64,000 nucleotides of DNA from the NCBI GenBank assembly GCA_944323045.1, contig CALUQX010000009.1, positions 11,903 through 75,902 on the forward strand, written 5' to 3'. The position numbers and the translations under genes were made by a program. Under the pieces are notes generated by a model. That model saw only the letters and a program-made list of their open reading frames with translations. It was not told where the DNA came from and ran no database searches. Origin of the DNA: Candidatus Gastranaerophilales bacterium. Lineage in GTDB: Bacteria > Cyanobacteriota > Vampirovibrionia > Gastranaerophilales > Gastranaerophilaceae. Shown here in pieces: positions 2,440 to 24,976 of this stretch (position 1 is the first letter of the stretch; every line of letters starts with the position of its first letter).

Positions 2440-4116
2440 ATGTGTTATAATTCAGAAATGAAAGAGATTAAAATTATTGCACCGGTCAAAAAACCTGATG
2501 ATATTCAGCTTTTCGCATCTAAAACGAATTGCCGCGACTATTACGTTTATTACAAGAAATTCCTTAATAATAATTTCGACTATGTGACGGAATTTGTATC
2601 CGCGGCAAAAAATAACAACTGTCGTATCTACATTAATTTTAAACACGATATCACAGAAGAAAATCTTGCAGAAATAAAAAAAATGCTTAAATTTCTGAAA
2701 ACAGCAGGTATTGACGGCATTTTTATAAACAGTTTTGCAATACTAGAGGCGATAAAAGTGTTTAATCTGCCTTTCAAAATAATTGTTGACAGCTATTTTG
2801 ATATACACAATATCGCAGGAATTGATTTTCTGAATAACTTTCATAAAATTGATGAAGTTATCATTACTGAAGAAATTTACATGAAGAATATTGCAAAAAT
2901 CAAAAAATACACAAAGTTGCCGCTGGCAATAGATTCCGACAATCTTCCGTGGTGTGCGGAGGATATACAAAAACTCAAAGCAATAGACAGTGTTGTAATA
3001 AAAGGAAAATTCGCGACATCCGAAGAAATTCTTGAAGGTATTGAACTTGTAGAAAAAATACTCGCTAACCCTAAAATGTTCAAAAATCAAAAACTGCCTT
3101 TTAAACACGTAAGAAAGAGCATTTATCAGACCAACCATTTTTCCGGCGAAGTTGTCAGCGCAGAAGGTAATGACTTTGAATTTAGTTGTAATATCAAGAA
3201 CTTTGACTGGGATATCAAGCCGCCGCGTATAAAGTCAGATTATGAAGGCGCCAGAAAAAATAAATACCGGATAAACTTACGCCTATCAGAACTCGCGCAT
3301 CTAAAAGAGTTAGAAAAATACATTAAAAAAGTTGGCAAATGTCCGATTTATTCTATTGAATATGGTGAAATACTTGCAACAAGTGATTTAGCGACCAGCA
3401 GTTTCAATGAAATAATAATGAAAGTCAAGAAATTTTGCGTAAAATACGGTATTGAATTTCAGTTATCAACTCCCAGAATCCTTATAGAACGTGACTTTGA
3501 CAGAGTTTATGAGTATGTAAAACAGATTATCCTCTCAGATCCTGAACCTTCATCCTTAATCATCAATAATATCGGGTATTTCTGGATGATTCTGAATGAT
3601 ACGGATATGGACGATTTGCCTTTAGAAATTGGGCAGGGAATAAATTTGTTGAACAGCCTTTCTATAAAGTGTTTAAACAGTCTTACGCCTTTAAATACAG
3701 TTGATTTCACGTCATTTAAAGATAAGGAAAGCGCTATTAAAACTATTAAGAAGATAAAAAATCTTATACCGAACCGCAAATATACAATTGCCGGAAATAT
3801 CAGAGTTCCGAGCTTAGGCTTGTGCCCGCTCAATAATGATAGCGCAATAATTTCGCGCCTGTCTTGTGCAGCACCGTGCCATAGAGGCGGATATGCATTG
3901 CATGACCCGTCACTGGATAAAGTCTATCCGTTTACCTGCGACGGTTTTTGCAGAATGCATATGTTTGAAGACCGGATACTGGCGGATTTTGATGATGTAG
4001 AAGAACTCGCCAAAGCCGGAGTTAACGAATTTGTATTTGATTTCAGCGCCCTGAACGCTAAATTTATACCCGTATTGCTTGAAAAATTTTTTAATAGAGC
4101 TGACTTAAAGGCTTGA
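2440..4116 (+). CDS. U32-peptidase-family-like protein (function uncertain)
   Basis: Long ORF with a TIM-barrel-like N-terminus (IKIIAPV...DGIFINS) and a Cys-rich C-terminal part (CAAPCHRGG...CDGFC). The true start may be M at 2458. Confidence 0.4.
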   Translation: MCYNSEMKEIKIIAPVKKPDDIQLFASKTNCRDYYVYYKKFLNNNFDYVTEFVSAAKNNNCRIYINFKHDITEENLAEIKKMLKFLKTAGIDGIFINSFAILEAIKVFNLPFKIIVDSYFDIHNIAGIDFLNNFHKIDEVIITEEIYMKNIAKIKKYTKLPLAIDSDNLPWCAEDIQKLKAIDSVVIKGKFATSEEILEGIELVEKILANPKMFKNQKLPFKHVRKSIYQTNHFSGEVVSAEGNDFEFSCNIKNFDWDIKPPRIKSDYEGARKNKYRINLRLSELAHLKELEKYIKKVGKCPIYSIEYGEILATSDLATSSFNEIIMKVKKFCVKYGIEFQLSTPRILIERDFDRVYEYVKQIILSDPEPSSLIINNIGYFWMILNDTDMDDLPLEIGQGINLLNSLSIKCLNSLTPLNTVDFTSFKDKESAIKTIKKIKNLIPNRKYTIAGNIRVPSLGLCPLNNDSAIISRLSCAAPCHRGGYALHDPSLDKVYPFTCDGFCRMHMFEDRILADFDDVEELAKAGVNEFVFDFSALNAKFIPVLLEKFFNRADLKA

Positions 4117-4405
4117 AAAAATTTGAGACATATGTAATAATGAGTATAAGAATGGCAAAAACTGAGGAATTTGGATGACAGAGTTGTTGGCAGACCGAAA
4201 AGAACAAAATGTAGTTTTGGGTTTCCACCCCGACAATTTCCGTAGGGTGGGCAAAGCAGAGCGTGCCCACCGCAATGTTGGTAACTCCCAGCAAACGGAA
4301 CTTACTCCACTCACAATCCTCACCCCCTTCACTTTTGGTGCGTGCAAACATGAGCCTTTTGCATCTTGCAAAGTGGCTGAAACCCGCATGAATACTGAGT
4401 TTTGC

Positions 4406-4416
4406 GGGGGGGGGGG
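4406..4416 (+). repeat. homopolymeric G11 tract
   Basis: Counted directly: GC-GGGGGGGGGGG-TGCC. The homologous site upstream of paralog B has G10. Confidence 0.95.
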
Positions 4417-4480
4417 TGCCAAACTCTAAGCCCCACAAGGCTTTCCGGCACATTGCAAAATCGTGTCATAGTCAAAACCC

Positions 4481-4536
4481 GTCATCCCGCAACAGGATTG
4501 CGGCAATACACAGAGATTGTGACCTTGCGGGATCTC
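4481..4536 (+). repeat. polar stem-loop element (GTCAT-stem-loop-stem-ATCTC), copy 1 of a perfect direct repeat
   Basis: GTCATCCCGCAACAGGATTGCGGCAATACACAGAGATTGTGACCTTGCGGGATCTC. CCCGCAA can pair with either of two TTGCGG(G) segments. Confidence 0.85.
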
Positions 4537-5036
4537 AAACAAAAATTTACAGTAGACCGTATTTCCCAATCCGCCAGCACCACCACAAGCCAAAAACTTG
4601 TGAATAAATCAATAGTCCTATTAAAACCTACTTAATAAATAGAATTTATGCTAAATTAGCATTATGACAAAGAAAAAACATAAGGATAAAGAATTATGCC
4701 AAAAGATGAAGAATTAAACCAACAATTGAAGAACCACAAAATTCCTCTCCAAGGGGGAGGAAAAGAATTTGTTAGCGAATGTAATGAGCTTACAAATTCA
4801 GGAGGGGGTCAGACCAGTCCGCATTTATACACTGAGTGGTTGCTAAAGAAGTCCAATCACCCAAATTCGACCCAAAACAACTTGTTTCAGGGTCTAGCCA
4901 ACGTGACAGAGGTCGATGAGTTGAATACCCAAACAGTCGTCGCATTAGTGACCCCTCACCAAGAAAGGCTAGCCTCATTACATTCGTCAAGCCTTTCTAT
5001 CCTCTCCCGCAAGGGGCGAGGAGAACGTCATCCCGC

Positions 5037-5092
5037 AACAGGATTGCGGCAATACACAGAGATTGTGACCTTGCGGGATCTCAAAAGAAAAG
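5037..5092 (+). repeat. polar stem-loop element, copy 2 (identical to 4481-4536)
   Basis: About 60 nt identical to the copy 556 bp upstream, extending one base 5' and three bases 3' of the element. Confidence 0.85.
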
Positions 5093-5118
5093 TAGTAACA
5101 AAAAAGGAGAATAAAACA

Positions 5119-6246
5119 ATGAAACTAAACAACAACAAAGCAGTGGCTCAGACCAATTCCAGAAACGGACTTAACGTCCTAACGTCTTATCGTCTTAACG
5201 TCTTTGGAAGACGCTCCGCGTTTACCCTCGCCGAAGTCCTCATCACCCTTGCGATAATCGGCGTAGTGGCGGCGATAACGATACCAAGCCTTGTTAAGAA
5301 CTACAATGAGCATGCATGGTTAACCGCACAGGATGTGTTCACCAAAAGACTTGAAGTCGCAACCCGCCAAATGAACACCGAGGAAAAACTTGCGGGTTAC
5401 AGTTCGACAATGGATTTTGTAAACGAATTAAAGAAGAAAATCAAAATAACCAACGTATGCGATAGCAACAATTTGAGTAAATGCTTTGAAAGCACAATCT
5501 TAACAGCAGACGGTCAGGAAATAGATGCTACTAATTTAAAGACATCCGCCAAACTTGCCAAAGAGGATTGGGGAACGGAAACAGTTGGCGTGCAGTTTGC
5601 AAATGGAATAAATGCATTAATAGCATATAATCCGCAGACAGACCAACAACCGTTCAATAATCAGTTTAGTGCGACTGAGGCAAGCATGGCAATATTGTAT
5701 GACGTATCCGGACACAAAAATCCGAATACCTTAGGTAAAGACGTGAATCAGAACGCGAATGTTAAAAAATTAGGCTGTTATATTAAGCCGGATTTAGTAG
5801 GCGGTATGTGCATAAGCCAGATACTCGTCCCAGGAACAGGCTATAGCCCTATGACGAAAGCAGAATGCGACCAAGCAGTATCCGACGGAGAATTAGGGGT
5901 AAAGGCTTGCCAATATAATGATGATTATTGGGCAGGAGCAGTGAAAGCATGTGGAGGAATAAACAACATGCCAACAGAATCGCAATTAATAGACCTAGCT
6001 AAGTACGTATATAATACAGACAGTATAAACGGCGGAACAAGTACAACACATGCAACCTTAGACACAGAAAAAGCCTCTCAATTCCTCTCAGCATCCCCAT
6101 ATTCTAATTCGTTCTATGTTTGGTCTGGGCAGGAGAGCAGCAGCCTCGGCGCGTACTACCGCGACTTTCGCTATACCTACACGCTCTGGTACGACAGCAG
6201 CGCCCGCGACAGCAGCATCATACTCGCGGTTTGTCTTGACCAGTAA
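5119..6246 (+). CDS. prepilin-type N-terminal methylation-domain protein with lectin-like hypervariable C-terminus (paralog A)
   Basis: AAAAAGGAGA RBS before ATG 5119. AFTLAEVLITLAIIGVVAAITIPSL class-III signal/hydrophobic helix with E at +5. C-terminal YWAGAVKACGG..MPT..QL..LAKYVY...FYVWSG...AVCLDQ resembles the DUF1566/C-type-lectin-like layout. The ORF is open in frame back to 4696 (see findings). Confidence 0.85.
   Translation: MKLNNNKAVAQTNSRNGLNVLTSYRLNVFGRRSAFTLAEVLITLAIIGVVAAITIPSLVKNYNEHAWLTAQDVFTKRLEVATRQMNTEEKLAGYSSTMDFVNELKKKIKITNVCDSNNLSKCFESTILTADGQEIDATNLKTSAKLAKEDWGTETVGVQFANGINALIAYNPQTDQQPFNNQFSATEASMAILYDVSGHKNPNTLGKDVNQNANVKKLGCYIKPDLVGGMCISQILVPGTGYSPMTKAECDQAVSDGELGVKACQYNDDYWAGAVKACGGINNMPTESQLIDLAKYVYNTDSINGGTSTTHATLDTEKASQFLSASPYSNSFYVWSGQESSSLGAYYRDFRYTYTLWYDSSARDSSIILAVCLDQ
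6121..6243 (+). other. candidate DGR variable region (VR-A)
   Basis: GC-rich island in an AT-rich gene. By hand count, 24 of 30 codons in 6136-6225 end in C. Identical flanks in paralog B, with internal differences mostly at codon positions 1-2. Confidence 0.55.
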
Positions 6247-22956: not shown

Positions 22957-23270
22957 AATCCACCACCTTTGTATATTATATTACCATAATCTGAATACAC
23001 AGGAGCAGGATTAATGAAAATTAACATAGAGGACTTGCAAAATTTAGCAACATATGTCATAATGAAAATGTGAACAAAAACCGAGGAGTTCAATGACAGG
23101 AAGTATGATGGAACGATTAGAAGAAAATAAATTCTTAATCACTCAATCACCTAATCACTTAATCACTTTAAAAAATGTATGTTTGGGGTTCCACCCAAGC
23201 AATATCCTCACCCCACTTACTTTTGCGCCATGCGATAGGGCTGAAACCCTTGCTATGACTGCATTTGCGC

Positions 23271-23280
23271 GGGGGGGGGG
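23271..23280 (+). repeat. homopolymeric G10 tract
   Basis: Counted directly. Same flanks as the G11 tract at 4406-4416. Confidence 0.95.
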
Positions 23281-23376
23281 TGCCAAACTCTAAGCCCCAC
23301 AAGGCTTTCCGGGCACACGAAGTGTGCTCTTACATATGGAAACCTGCTAAAGAAGTGCAGCCCCTGCCACATTCAT

Positions 23377-23403: not shown

Positions 23404-23836
23404 CTCATCGGTCAGTCAGTAGACCGTATTTCCCAATCCGCCAGAACCAACACAAGCCGAAAGCTTGTGCATAAGTCAATAGTCCTATTAAAGCCTACTT
23501 AATAAATAGAATTTGTGATAAATTAGTATTATAACAAAGAAAACATAAGGATAAAGAATTATGCTAAATGATGAAGAATCAAATCAACAATTGAAGAACC
23601 ACAAAATTCCTCTCCGTGGGGGAGGAAGAAATTTGTTGCCGAACGGAGAGAGGCTAGAAATTTCAGGAGGGGGTCGGACCAGACCACATATAGTCCCCCC
23701 ACCCGAACCACTAAACTCACGAAAGTTCGTTAAGTGGTTCCGCCCTCCCCTCAGGAGAGGGCACCAAGCCAACCACGAGGAAACAATCAGTAATACACAA
23801 TCAGAAGATAGAAACAACAGAAAGGAGCAACTCCAA

Positions 23837-24976
23837 ATGAAAACCAAAAACAAAATCAACGAATCAACCGCTCAGACCAATTCCAGAAACAACGGTACTC
23901 ACCATACTCACTTCACTCACTTAGTCACGTCCCCAAAAGCCGCGTTTACCCTCGCCGAAGTCCTAATCACCCTCGCAATCATCGGCGTAGTAGCGGCGAT
24001 AACGATACCGAGCTTAGTCAAGAATTACAATGAAAAGGCATGGGAAAGTGGACAAAAAGTTTTTGAAAACAGATTACTTGTAGCTACACGTCAGATGAAC
24101 ACAGAGGAAAAATTGGCAGGTTATTCTTCAACCATGGACTTTGTGAATGAGTTGAAAAAATATATTAAAATAACCCGTGTCTGCGATAATGACAACATTA
24201 CCAAATGCTTTAATAAAGAAGTAATCTGGAGTGCTGATGAAGAGCCGGTAGACATGTCAAAAGTAACAGATGCATCAGCTTTTGGTCTGGATTGGGAGAC
24301 TGATACGGTAGCAGTTCAGTTTGCGAACGGTGTAAATGCAGTAATTGCTTACAATCCGAATGCAACACAAGACCCATATAATAACCAGTTTGCGGCGACC
24401 TCAAAATCCATGGCAATATTGTATGATTTGTCAGGAAACAAGAATCCGAATACAAATGGTAAGGATATAAAAAATATAAATGTAGACCAGTTAGCCGGTG
24501 TAGAAGGCTGTTTGATACCTGAGTTAAAAGATACAATGTGCATAACGAAAATTATATCTCCGGAAGAATACGGATATTTATCATATTCAGAATGTACCGA
24601 GGCTAAGAATAACGGCGAAATAGACGTAGATGCATGTTATAATGGCTCAAGTCCAGATTATTTTGCGGGCGCAGTAAAAGCATGTGGAGGTAAGAAAGCA
24701 AACTTACCAAGCCAAGACCAGCTAACGCAGCTAGCAAAATATGTATATGGAACAGACAGTATAAACTCCAGCGGTTATACATATGACCTAGCTTTAGACA
24801 CAACCAAAGCCTCCCAATTCCGCTCAGCAAGAGGTACTGATTACTTCTATGTTTGGTCTGGGCAGGAGTATAGCCGCGACCGCGCGTACTTCCGCTTCTT
24901 CTACTCTACCGGCACGAACGGGAACGACTGCAACCGCCACTACAGCTACGCTCTTGCGGTTTGTCTAGACCAGTAA
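23837..24976 (+). CDS. prepilin-type N-terminal methylation-domain protein with lectin-like hypervariable C-terminus (paralog B)
   Basis: AAAGGAG RBS before ATG 23837. AFTLAEVLITLAIIGVVAAITIPSL. Central 79 aa identical to paralog C. C-terminal FYVWSGQE...AVCLDQ. The ORF is open in frame back to 23561. Confidence 0.85.
   Translation: MKTKNKINESTAQTNSRNNGTHHTHFTHLVTSPKAAFTLAEVLITLAIIGVVAAITIPSLVKNYNEKAWESGQKVFENRLLVATRQMNTEEKLAGYSSTMDFVNELKKYIKITRVCDNDNITKCFNKEVIWSADEEPVDMSKVTDASAFGLDWETDTVAVQFANGVNAVIAYNPNATQDPYNNQFAATSKSMAILYDLSGNKNPNTNGKDIKNINVDQLAGVEGCLIPELKDTMCITKIISPEEYGYLSYSECTEAKNNGEIDVDACYNGSSPDYFAGAVKACGGKKANLPSQDQLTQLAKYVYGTDSINSSGYTYDLALDTTKASQFRSARGTDYFYVWSGQEYSRDRAYFRFFYSTGTNGNDCNRHYSYALAVCLDQ
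24853..24973 (+). other. candidate DGR variable region (VR-B)
   Basis: By hand count, 22 of 29 codons in 24869-24955 end in C. Flanks identical to VR-A. Confidence 0.55.

What the first reader, a model, noticed from the sequence alone, without database searches (positions are those of the whole stretch)
4406..4416. G11 homopolymer in the leader of paralog A
An 11-G run is very improbable in this AT-rich sequence. It sits in a block conserved with paralog B (…TGCG-Gn-TGCCAAACTCTAAGCCCCACAAGGCTTTCCGG), where the run is G10. The length difference between copies is direct evidence that the tract changes length. Homopolymeric tracts upstream of or within surface-protein genes are classic slipped-strand phase-variation switches (Neisseria, Haemophilus, Campylobacter). 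This tract lies ~700 nt upstream of the likely start codon, which is atypical. It may therefore act through a small upstream ORF (4175-4429 ends ...CGGGGAKL-stop directly after the tract) or through RNA structure.
Basis: partly seen in the sequence, partly recalled or inferred. Interest (0 to 1): 0.6.

Follow-up and report, generated by a model that had tools for sequence, protein, structure and literature searches.

The report
Poly-G frame switch in pilin leader
The run of eleven Gs is real and ends a small translated leader gene in front of a pilin-like surface-protein gene in an uncultured chicken-gut bacterium, where its length decides whether ribosomes stop at once or read on to the pilin gene, so it looks like a per-gene on/off switch, though switching itself was not seen at this locus.

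Summary
The G11 run (4406-4416) and its G10 twin (23271-23280) are real. Nearly all G/C runs of 9 or more in this 36% GC Gastranaerophilales MAG belong to one module.

That module occurs 16 times in this genome and in all six species of the genus. It always lies at the 3' end of a small ORF with its own promoter-like site, SD and ATG, 140-1300 nt upstream of a prepilin-type gene.

In one frame the leader ORF stops 4-22 nt after the tract (47 of 60 copies, including A and B). In the other two frames it stays open for 150-390 nt. In a sister species it then ends in an ATGA overlap with the pilin ORF start.

The A/B difference (G11 vs G10) is compensated by the flank, so it is not a slip. Identical-flank copies and syntenic orthologues do differ by ±1 G and by state. 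The same module inside a glycosyltransferase gene is G12 or G11 in different samples.

Ten same-locus comparisons of leader tracts across samples showed no change. No raw reads were available.

Best reading: a slipped-strand contingency switch acting through the leader ORF frame. This is a new variant of a known kind.

The parts
4113..4141 (+). Sigma-70-like promoter P1 of locus A (TTGAAA-17-AATAAT with TG), upstream of the leader ORF
   Evidence: It lies in the module conserved between A and B. No + strand promoter is predicted between the tract and the pilin gene.
4164..4429 (+). SD (GAGGA, 4164-4168) plus leader ORF A (ATG 4175, TAA 4427-4429, 84 codons). The content is repeat-derived and the peptide is not conserved.
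   Evidence: No Pfam hit. The frame is open from the SD-ATG to the tract in all 16 genome copies.
4375..4405 (+). Pre-tract module GGCTGAAACCC-N14-TTTTGC. It is conserved at nucleotide level and is read in different frames in different species.
4406..4416 (+). G11 tract (codons GGG GGG GGG GG-), the proposed slippage site
   Evidence: It is also G11 in two independent assemblies of this locus.
4417..4449 (+). Post-tract conserved block carrying the frame-0 stop TAA (4427-4429) and the small hairpin AAGCC-CCACAA-GGCTT
4417..4635 (+). Read-on region. The two alternative frames stay open to 4607 and 4635, then meet stops in all frames (TGAATAA...TTAATAAATAG).
   Evidence: Shuffle p = 0.02 for the longest frame and 0 of 1000 for the second frame.
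4696..6246 (+). Long ORF of locus A: a conserved ATG at 4696, a 141-codon in-frame extension, then the prepilin-type protein from the SD-supported ATG at 5119 (N_methyl motif)
23035..23063 (+). Promoter P1 of locus B (TTGCAA-17-CATAAT with TG)
23093..23293 (+). Leader ORF of locus B (66 codons) ending ...ARGGGAKL*
23271..23280 (+). G10 tract of locus B, in the same frame state as A through the compensating flank TTTGCGC
   Evidence: It is G10 in two independent assemblies.
23561..24976 (+). Long ORF of locus B, with the SD-supported prepilin start at 23837

Best explanation
The G11 run is the variable core of a portable module: a conserved GAAACC...TTTGC flank followed by a pure G9-14 run. The module closes a short translated leader ORF. 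That ORF is transcribed from its own sigma-70-like promoter in front of a subfamily of prepilin-type surface-protein genes.

Only one reading frame can enter the tract. Tract length sets the frame in which ribosomes leave it. In the 'short' state, which is that of locus A and locus B, a conserved stop follows within 4-22 nt. After a gain or loss of one G, the ORF runs on for 150-390 nt. It then ends 27-90 nt before the next start codon in this genome. In sister species it ends exactly at an ATGA overlap with that start, or is fused in frame to the pilin ORF.

Slipped-strand mispairing at the tract would therefore toggle, for each family member separately, whether leader translation is coupled to the pilin ORF. 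I favour read-on = ON. The genus has no Rho, so the effect would come from termination-reinitiation, unmasking of the ribosome-binding site, or protection of the long leader RNA. It would not come from Rho polarity.

Shown here: the anatomy, its conservation, the frame logic, ±1 differences between copies and between orthologues, and one between-sample polymorphism of the same module. Inferred: translation of the leader, the effect on pilin expression and its direction, and the switching rate.
For: 1. There are 16 copies in this genome and 9-28 tracts per genome in all six species of the genus, always upstream of a gene with a prepilin motif.
2. The leader ORF has an SD and ATG and is open to the tract in every copy, despite different repeat inserts. 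Stop-free frames in the 150 nt before the tract occur in 81% of copies, against 17% in shuffles.
3. The conserved motif AAACCCTTG is read in different frames in different species. What is kept is therefore an open frame, not a peptide.
4. After the tract one frame stops at once. The other two stay open far longer than composition predicts.
5. In sister species G001 the read-on frame ends in ATGA on the pilin ORF start in 7 of 11 copies. Copy L121 (G13) is actually in that state, while its siblings with identical flanks (G12) are short. In G005 the read-on frame of two copies runs straight into the pilin ORF.
6. 47 of 60 copies are short, against one third expected (p = 1e-12; by distinct flank classes 33 of 46, p = 1e-7). 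Different flank and tract combinations (T4GC+G11, T3GCGC+G10, T3GCGGA+G9, T7+G10, T3GC+G12) all keep that frame.
7. Two syntenic orthologues are 'long' in this genome and 'short' in G004.
8. The tract is pure G in about 95% of copies. Only three interrupted or shortened copies were found.
9. The same module inside a GT1 glycosyltransferase gene is G12 in four assemblies and G11 in one, giving a 310 aa or 284 aa product. Other genera of the order carry poly-G in ordinary surface-polysaccharide genes, with ±1 differences between species.
10. P1 is the only + strand promoter predicted. Low-depth metatranscriptome contigs of paralogues cover part of a leader ORF and run from the tract into a pilin gene.
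Against: 1. Ten same-locus comparisons across independent metagenome assemblies show identical tract lengths: A x2, B x2, and four other loci, including three 'long' ones.
2. Logan contigs show no length variants, but they drop rare variants.
3. MutS and MutL are intact, so slippage should be slower than in Campylobacter.
4. The pilin ORFs have good SDs of their own (AAGGAG before 5119; AAGGAGG in G001). Coupling is therefore not obviously needed, and the direction of the switch is unknown.
5. A -10-like TAGAAT at 4640-4645 could be a second promoter that bypasses the leader.
6. Copies are related by descent and by gene conversion, so the counts are not independent.
7. There is no direct evidence that the leader ORF is translated.
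Confidence: 0.55

Rival explanations
1. The tract is a fixed-length regulatory or structural element, not a switch. The G run works in the RNA. It could be an SD-like or rare-codon pause site at the end of a leader peptide, a partner of the conserved CCC about 20 nt upstream, or the target of a C/U-rich small RNA as in the H. pylori RepG-tlpB system. Its effective length would then be held by stabilising selection, and the ±1 copies would be decaying or mis-set family members.
For: Tract length is invariant at the same locus in ten cross-sample comparisons. Compensating flank changes keep the total length. The CCC motif sits at a constant 18-23 nt upstream and pairs with the tract in every predicted fold. 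G-repeat leaders that act through an sRNA are known (PMC8295292).
Against: Shuffled flanks pair with the tract as often, and RNAalifold finds no consensus structure. No Rfam family matches. About one fifth of copies in every species are out of frame with otherwise identical flanks. The two alternative frames are kept open up to the pilin start, which a fixed element does not explain. The same module is polymorphic between samples in a glycosyltransferase gene. No candidate sRNA was sought or found.
Confidence: 0.2
2. The module is a recombination or mobility element. It would mark the junction where leader and pilin cassettes are exchanged by gene conversion, in loose analogy to the G4 site upstream of Neisseria pilE. 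Alternatively it is a small mobile cassette that has inserted into several genes.
For: Leaders are mosaics that switch partner exactly at the conserved block. One assembly of locus A carries a different downstream module after the tract (L088). A 714-nt leader cassette is 99.6% identical at non-syntenic loci of two species whose syntenic flanks are 95% identical. The same flank+tract module lies inside two unrelated ORFs. A tract-less P1+leader-ORF version exists at an orthologous site.
Against: A single G run cannot form a canonical three-tetrad G4. Mosaic joins in short-read metagenome assemblies can be chimeras at repeats. No recombinase, silent cassettes or target-site duplications were found. 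Recombination does not explain the frame logic or the conserved stop.
Confidence: 0.12
3. The tract causes programmed transcriptional slippage or ribosomal frameshifting. DNA length would be fixed, but RNA polymerase or the ribosome slips on the G run. Every cell would then produce a constant mixture of short and read-on leader translation.
For: The run lies inside an ORF with both alternative frames open. DNA length is invariant across samples.
Against: Known transcriptional slippage favours A/T runs (general knowledge, not tested here). Copies differing by ±1 at the DNA level exist in every genome. The available RNA contigs break at the tract and give no information on length.
Confidence: 0.1
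4. Assembly or sequencing artefact at a homopolymer.
For: Homopolymers are error-prone, and many contigs break at these tracts.
Against: Independent assemblies from different studies give the same lengths locus by locus. The module is found in six species.
Confidence: 0.01

Closest known systems
Mycoplasma gallisepticum vlhA (pMGA) family with upstream GAA repeats (from general knowledge)
   Same: A large surface-protein multigene family in which each member carries its own simple repeat upstream. Most members are in the non-permissive length at any time.
   Different: There the trinucleotide repeat lies upstream of the promoter and acts on transcription. Here a mononucleotide run lies inside a translated leader ORF downstream of the promoter.
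Moraxella catarrhalis uspA1 poly-G tract in the 5' untranslated leader (from general knowledge)
   Same: A poly-G run lies well upstream of the start codon, inside the transcribed leader of an adhesin gene.
   Different: That is a single gene with an effect on mRNA level and no leader ORF frame logic. It is not a family-wide module.
Helicobacter pylori tlpB-hp0102 leader G-repeat targeted by the sRNA RepG (PMC8295292)
   Same: A variable G-repeat in an mRNA leader controls a downstream surface-related gene after transcription.
   Different: It acts through a C/U-rich sRNA and gives graded control. No sRNA is known here, and the run here is read as Gly codons at the end of an ORF.
Neisseria pilC and Campylobacter jejuni poly-G contingency genes (from general knowledge)
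   Same: Poly-G runs of 8-13 shift the reading frame of surface-structure genes. This organism's order also carries such intragenic tracts.
   Different: Those tracts lie inside the regulated gene itself. Here the shifted frame belongs to a separate leader ORF hundreds of bases upstream. Campylobacter lacks MutS/MutL, whereas this organism has both.
Haemophilus influenzae hmw1A 5'-UTR heptamer repeats processed by RNase III (PMC12721329)
   Same: A simple repeat transcribed as part of a long structured 5' leader of an adhesin gene acts after transcription.
   Different: That system uses a heptamer array with a graded effect through a long hairpin. It does not use a homopolymer in an ORF.
Neisseria gonorrhoeae pilE-associated G4 recombination initiator (from general knowledge)
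   Same: A G-rich element lies upstream of a variable pilin gene.
   Different: It needs four G3 tracts and silent pilS donors. Here there is a single run and no silent cassettes.

Membership tests
Simple-sequence contingency locus (slipped-strand phase variation) | Long pure mononucleotide run in or next to a gene, far beyond chance | tested here: met
   G11 and G10 in the window, against 0.03 expected. 19 runs of 9 or more in a 36% GC genome, all with the same flank motif.
Simple-sequence contingency locus (slipped-strand phase variation) | Tract length differs within a population or between close strains at the same locus | tested here: inconclusive
   Leader tracts: 0 changes in 10 cross-sample comparisons. 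The same module in a glycosyltransferase gene is G12 in 4 assemblies and G11 in 1. Syntenic orthologues in a sister species differ. No raw reads were available.
Simple-sequence contingency locus (slipped-strand phase variation) | A length change of one unit alters expression through frame or promoter geometry | tested here: inconclusive
   The frame consequence for the leader ORF is shown in silico. The effect on pilin expression cannot be tested with these tools.
Simple-sequence contingency locus (slipped-strand phase variation) | The regulated gene encodes a surface or host-interaction function | tested here: met
   The downstream proteins carry PF07963 N_methyl. There are 71 prepilin-motif ORFs in the genome.
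Promoter-spacer homopolymer switches (Bordetella fim, Neisseria porA/opc, Mycoplasma vlp) | Tract lies between the -35 and -10 boxes or directly at the promoter | tested here: not met
   The tract starts 265 nt downstream of the predicted -10 of P1. No promoter hexamers flank it on either strand (and reading of the sequence).
sRNA-targeted G-repeat leader (RepG type) | A C/U-rich sRNA pairs with the G-repeat | not tested
   No search for such an sRNA was made. All C runs of 9 or more in the genome are the reverse strand of these same tracts.
G-quadruplex recombination initiator (pilE G4) | Four G tracts able to form a three-tetrad G4 | tested here: not met
   There is a single run of 9-14 G, and the flanks hold no further G3 tracts.
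Type IV pilin-like (prepilin) proteins | N-terminal methylation and cleavage motif followed by a hydrophobic helix | tested here: met
   PF07963 at residues 31-54 of the protein encoded from 5119 and residues 34-56 of that from 23837, above the cut-off. The sequence is AFTLAEVLITLAIIGVVAA.
Known structured RNA family (Rfam) | Match to a curated covariance model | tested here: not met
   Only a tRNA reached the gathering score in the window. The relaxed search of 4100-5200 gave one chance-level hit.

The most novel reading that the evidence does not exclude
The hairpin-prone flank plus pure poly-G run is a portable 'phase-variation cassette' that this lineage has copied into many contexts: leader ORFs of pilin genes, a glycosyltransferase and a kinase-like gene. 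In front of the retroelement-diversified pilin family it would give two stacked layers of variation. Poly-G slippage in a leader ORF chooses which paralogues are expressed, through translational coupling in a Rho-less bacterium. The retroelement rewrites their tips. The conserved flank may itself raise slippage despite intact mismatch repair.
Probability: 0.2. Interest if true: 0.8.

Novelty: new variant of a known kind. Interest (0 to 1): 0.62.

Why it matters
Gastranaerophilales (non-photosynthetic relatives of cyanobacteria) are uncultured gut bacteria, and almost nothing is known about their surface biology. My literature searches found no report of simple-repeat phase variation in them.

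If the reading holds, these bacteria run a contingency-locus system comparable to those of Campylobacter or Neisseria. The unusual design is that the frame switch sits in a separate leader ORF, not in the regulated gene or its promoter. It also controls members of a pilin-like family that earlier notes of this scan report as retroelement-diversified.

That would be a compact natural example of translation-coupled switching without Rho. It would also explain why these loci carry roughly 1-kb leaders in which nearly every stretch is an open frame.

In practice, the tracts break metagenome assemblies and create 'frameshifted' gene calls in these MAGs.

Tried and rejected
1. Sigma-54 or sigma-70 promoter spanning the tract, on either strand. 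TGGCAC-N-GC spacing would need C8, and the motif is absent from the other flank variants. The promoter scan found nothing at the tract. Rejected.
2. GTG start at the last G, with the run acting as an SD. Not conserved in the CGCC and TATC variants. Rejected.
3. A single long gene interrupted by a sequencing frameshift. Stops in all three frames at 4605-4643 prevent fusion with the pilin ORF in this genome, and independent assemblies agree on the length. Rejected.
4. Known RNA family. None found.
5. Consensus RNA structure with covariation. RNAalifold returned no pairs on a 33-sequence alignment. Pairing of the tract with the upstream CCC is no more frequent than in shuffles. Left as weak.
6. 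Read-level heterogeneity. All DNA runs are held only as Logan contigs. These break at, or run through, the tract with no length variants and cannot show rare variants.
7. Rho-dependent polarity as the mechanism. No Rho RNA-binding domain in this genus or three other genomes of the order. Rejected.
8. Loss of mismatch repair as the cause of the tracts. MutS and MutL are present. Rejected.
9. Pfam search of the leader ORF, the read-on product and the 141-codon extension. No hits.

Full report
**Observation**

The + strand carries G11 at 4406-4416 and G10 at 23271-23280. Runs of nine or more G are expected 0.03 times in shuffles of this window. The 32 bases after the tract are identical in loci A and B. 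The ORF 4175-4429 ends ...FCGGGGAKL*, with its stop 10 nt after the tract. B has the equivalent ORF 23093-23293.

One detail changes its meaning. A reads TTTTGC+G11 and B reads TTTGCGC+G10, and both are 17 nt. The two copies are therefore in the same frame, and their difference is not a plain slip.

**What organism and how many copies**

The window is contig C9 of a 1.98-Mb, 36.4% GC, 44-contig assembly. Related records are titled Candidatus Gastranaerophilales MAGs, and the DNA is found in chicken-gut metagenomes.

- Of 19 G/C runs of nine or more in the genome, 16 lie in the same module...GGCTGAAACCC-N14-TTT(T)GC-G(9-12)-[TGCC|CGCC|TATC]...AAGCCCCACAAGGCTTTC. The lengths are G9 x1, G10 x2, G11 x11 and G12 x2.
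- One further copy has decayed to G6.
- Each copy lies 180-390 nt before an ORF with a prepilin motif. The proteins from 5119 and 23837 match PF07963 N_methyl above the cut-off.
- The genome holds 71 prepilin-motif ORFs. About 31 are of the A type, with a mature part of roughly 345 aa. Fewer than half of these carry the tract leader, and the rest show no trace of it.
- Earlier notes of this scan report the C-terminal tips of this family as retroelement (DGR) targets. I did not test that.

**Anatomy of the leader**

A sigma-70-like promoter with an extended -10 is predicted at the same conserved place in A (4113-4141) and B (23035-23063). No + strand promoter is predicted between the tract and the pilin gene. 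An SD (GAGGA, 4164-4168) and an ATG (4175) follow.

In all 16 copies the frame from this SD-ATG to the tract is open. This holds although the intervening 30-150 codons are filled with different short-repeat inserts. Across 62 copies from six species, 81% have a stop-free frame in the 150 nt before the tract, against 17% of shuffled controls.

The two other frames are closed just before the tract by TGA codons inside the conserved flank. Only one frame can therefore enter the tract.

The conserved nucleotide motif AAACCCTTG is read as ETL in this species and as NPC in another. What is preserved is an open frame and a nucleotide motif, not a peptide. Pfam finds nothing in the leader products.

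**The frame logic**

After the tract one frame meets a conserved stop within 4-22 nt. In the two flank variants, TGCCAAACTCTAA and TATCTAA, the stop sits at different positions but in the same frame. The other two frames stay open for 150-390 nt, to 4607 and 4635 in A. This is much longer than composition predicts: the second-longest frame is matched by 0-1 of 1000 shuffles in most copies.

In this genome the read-on frames end 27-90 nt before the next start, which in A is the ATG at 4696.

In sister species G001 the read-on frame ends in an ATGA overlap with the pilin ORF start in 7 of 11 copies. Copy L121 (G13) is actually in that state, while three siblings with the same flanks have G12 and stop early. 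In G005 the read-on frame of two copies runs directly into the pilin ORF.

**Distribution of states**

47 of 60 scorable copies are 'short', against one third expected (binomial p = 1e-12). Counting each distinct flank and tract class once gives 33 of 46 (p = 1e-7). A and B are both short. Four copies in this genome are 'long'. Copies share ancestry, so these p values overstate independence. Even so, at least five different flank and tract combinations keep the same frame. That points to selection on the frame or on the total length.

**Does the tract change length?**

For:
- Copies with identical flanks differ by one G within genomes.
- Two syntenic orthologues, with flanks 95% identical over 1.4-1.5 kb, are long in this genome and short in G004.
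- A leader cassette 99.6% identical over 714 nt differs in the tract.
- The run is pure in about 95% of copies, with only three interrupted or shortened ones.
- The same flank+tract module inside a GT1 glycosyltransferase gene (G000 C1:115524) is G12 here and in three other assemblies but G11 in a fifth. That truncates the product from 310 to 284 aa.
- Other genera of the order carry poly-G in ordinary surface-polysaccharide genes, with ±1 differences between species.

Against:
- For six leader loci, ten independent assemblies from other samples have exactly the same length as this genome. This includes three of the 'long' loci.
- Public runs are held only as contigs. These show no length variants but cannot show rare ones.
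- MutS and MutL are intact.

The tracts do change, but probably at the modest rates of repair-proficient bacteria. Switching at locus A itself has not been seen.

**Mechanism**

The tract lies 265 nt downstream of the predicted -10 of P1, so it cannot act as a promoter spacer. Rho is absent from the genus, which excludes Rho polarity.

I therefore propose that tract length toggles the coupling of leader translation to the pilin ORF. The coupling could work by termination-reinitiation, by opening the ribosome-binding site, or by protecting the long leader RNA.

I favour read-on = ON for two reasons. Most family members are short, as in other families where few members are expressed at once. And selection keeps the read-on frames open right up to the start codon.

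The direction is uncertain, because the pilin ORFs have good SDs of their own. A -10-like TAGAAT at 4640-4645 might also drive a shorter transcript.

RNA evidence is thin. Low-depth metatranscriptome contigs of paralogues cover part of a leader ORF and run from the tract into a pilin gene. That is compatible with one transcript.

**Rivals**

- A fixed structural or pausing element, possibly an sRNA target as in H. pylori tlpB. This fits the cross-sample invariance. It does not explain the open alternative frames or the ±1 copies. Structure tests were negative or uninformative.
- A recombination or mobile cassette. This fits the mosaic leaders and the module's presence in unrelated genes. It does not explain the frame logic.
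- Transcriptional or ribosomal slippage. This remains possible.
- Artefact. Excluded by the independent assemblies.

**Comparison and novelty**

Homopolymer contingency loci, poly-G tracts in leaders (uspA1, tlpB) and repeat-bearing multigene families (vlhA) are known. The uspA1 and vlhA cases are cited from general knowledge; tlpB and hmw are.

Three things are different here:
- The switch sits in a separate translated leader ORF.
- The same flank+tract module recurs in different gene contexts.
- The setting is a Rho-less, uncultured relative of cyanobacteria, in front of a pilin family that earlier scan notes report as retroelement-diversified.

No paper linking Melainabacteria to simple-repeat phase variation was found.

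I rate it a new variant of a known kind, with interest 0.62 and confidence 0.55 in the leading explanation.

Noticed in passing
G000 contig C1:115524-115535 (outside the window); loci L139-L142: A G12 run with the same flank motif (CCAAAACCC...GGCTTTCAGAC) lies inside a GT1 glycosyltransferase gene of a polysaccharide locus. It is G11 in one of four other assemblies, which truncates the product from 310 to 284 aa. This is a plain intragenic phase-variable gene.
   Followed up: yes
G000 contig C1:111138-111147 (outside the window): A G10 run with a related flank (GGAAAGCC...CTTTTCAGCAA) lies in frame near the 5' end of a 348-aa ORF of the same polysaccharide locus. In two other assemblies a different gene occupies this slot.
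   Followed up: partly
Relatives G000-G040: Many genomes of the family have tens of poly-G runs of 9 or more. Up to about 220 overlapping 9-mers were counted in G021 and G022. Several other families of the order have none. One genome carries a G25 run.
   Followed up: partly
L011 (G000 C2) versus L020 (G004 C11): A 714-nt leader cassette is 99.6% identical at non-syntenic loci of two species whose syntenic flanks are only about 95% identical. This suggests recent exchange or conversion of leader cassettes.
   Followed up: no
L088 (independent assembly of locus A), just after the tract: Downstream of the conserved block this contig continues with the B-type or C8-type module instead of the window's sequence. 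It is either a real recombinant or an assembly chimera at the repeat.
   Followed up: no
window 4743-4763 and 23607-23627: A conserved hairpin, TTCCTCTCC-NNN-GGGGAGGAA followed by a T-rich tail, lies about 50 nt after the conserved ATG of the long ORF. The scan scored it as terminator-like on the + strand in B and on the - strand in A. It lies inside the in-frame extension.
   Followed up: no
window 4640-4662: A -10-like TAGAAT (4640-4645) and the palindrome ATGCTAAATTAGCAT (4648-4662) lie between the read-on stops and the ATG at 4696. The ATAGAATT block is conserved in sister species G001 directly upstream of the pilin ORF start. It may be a second promoter or an operator.
   Followed up: no
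L145-L154 (downstream of radA in other strains and species): The same promoter-like site, SD and a 49-codon leader ORF precede a pilin gene without any G tract or flank module. At the corresponding site this genome has the tract. The leader ORF therefore exists independently of the tract.
   Followed up: partly
G004 loci L054 and L060; G000 contig C22 (- strand, about 33290): Rare copies have an interrupted run (GGGGGAGGGGG or GGGGAGGGGGG) or a shortened one (G6). They look like locked or decayed versions of the module.
   Followed up: partly
whole genome G000: There are 71 ORFs with a prepilin cleavage and methylation motif in a 2-Mb genome. No Rho RNA-binding domain was found in this genus, although MutS and MutL are present.
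   Followed up: partly
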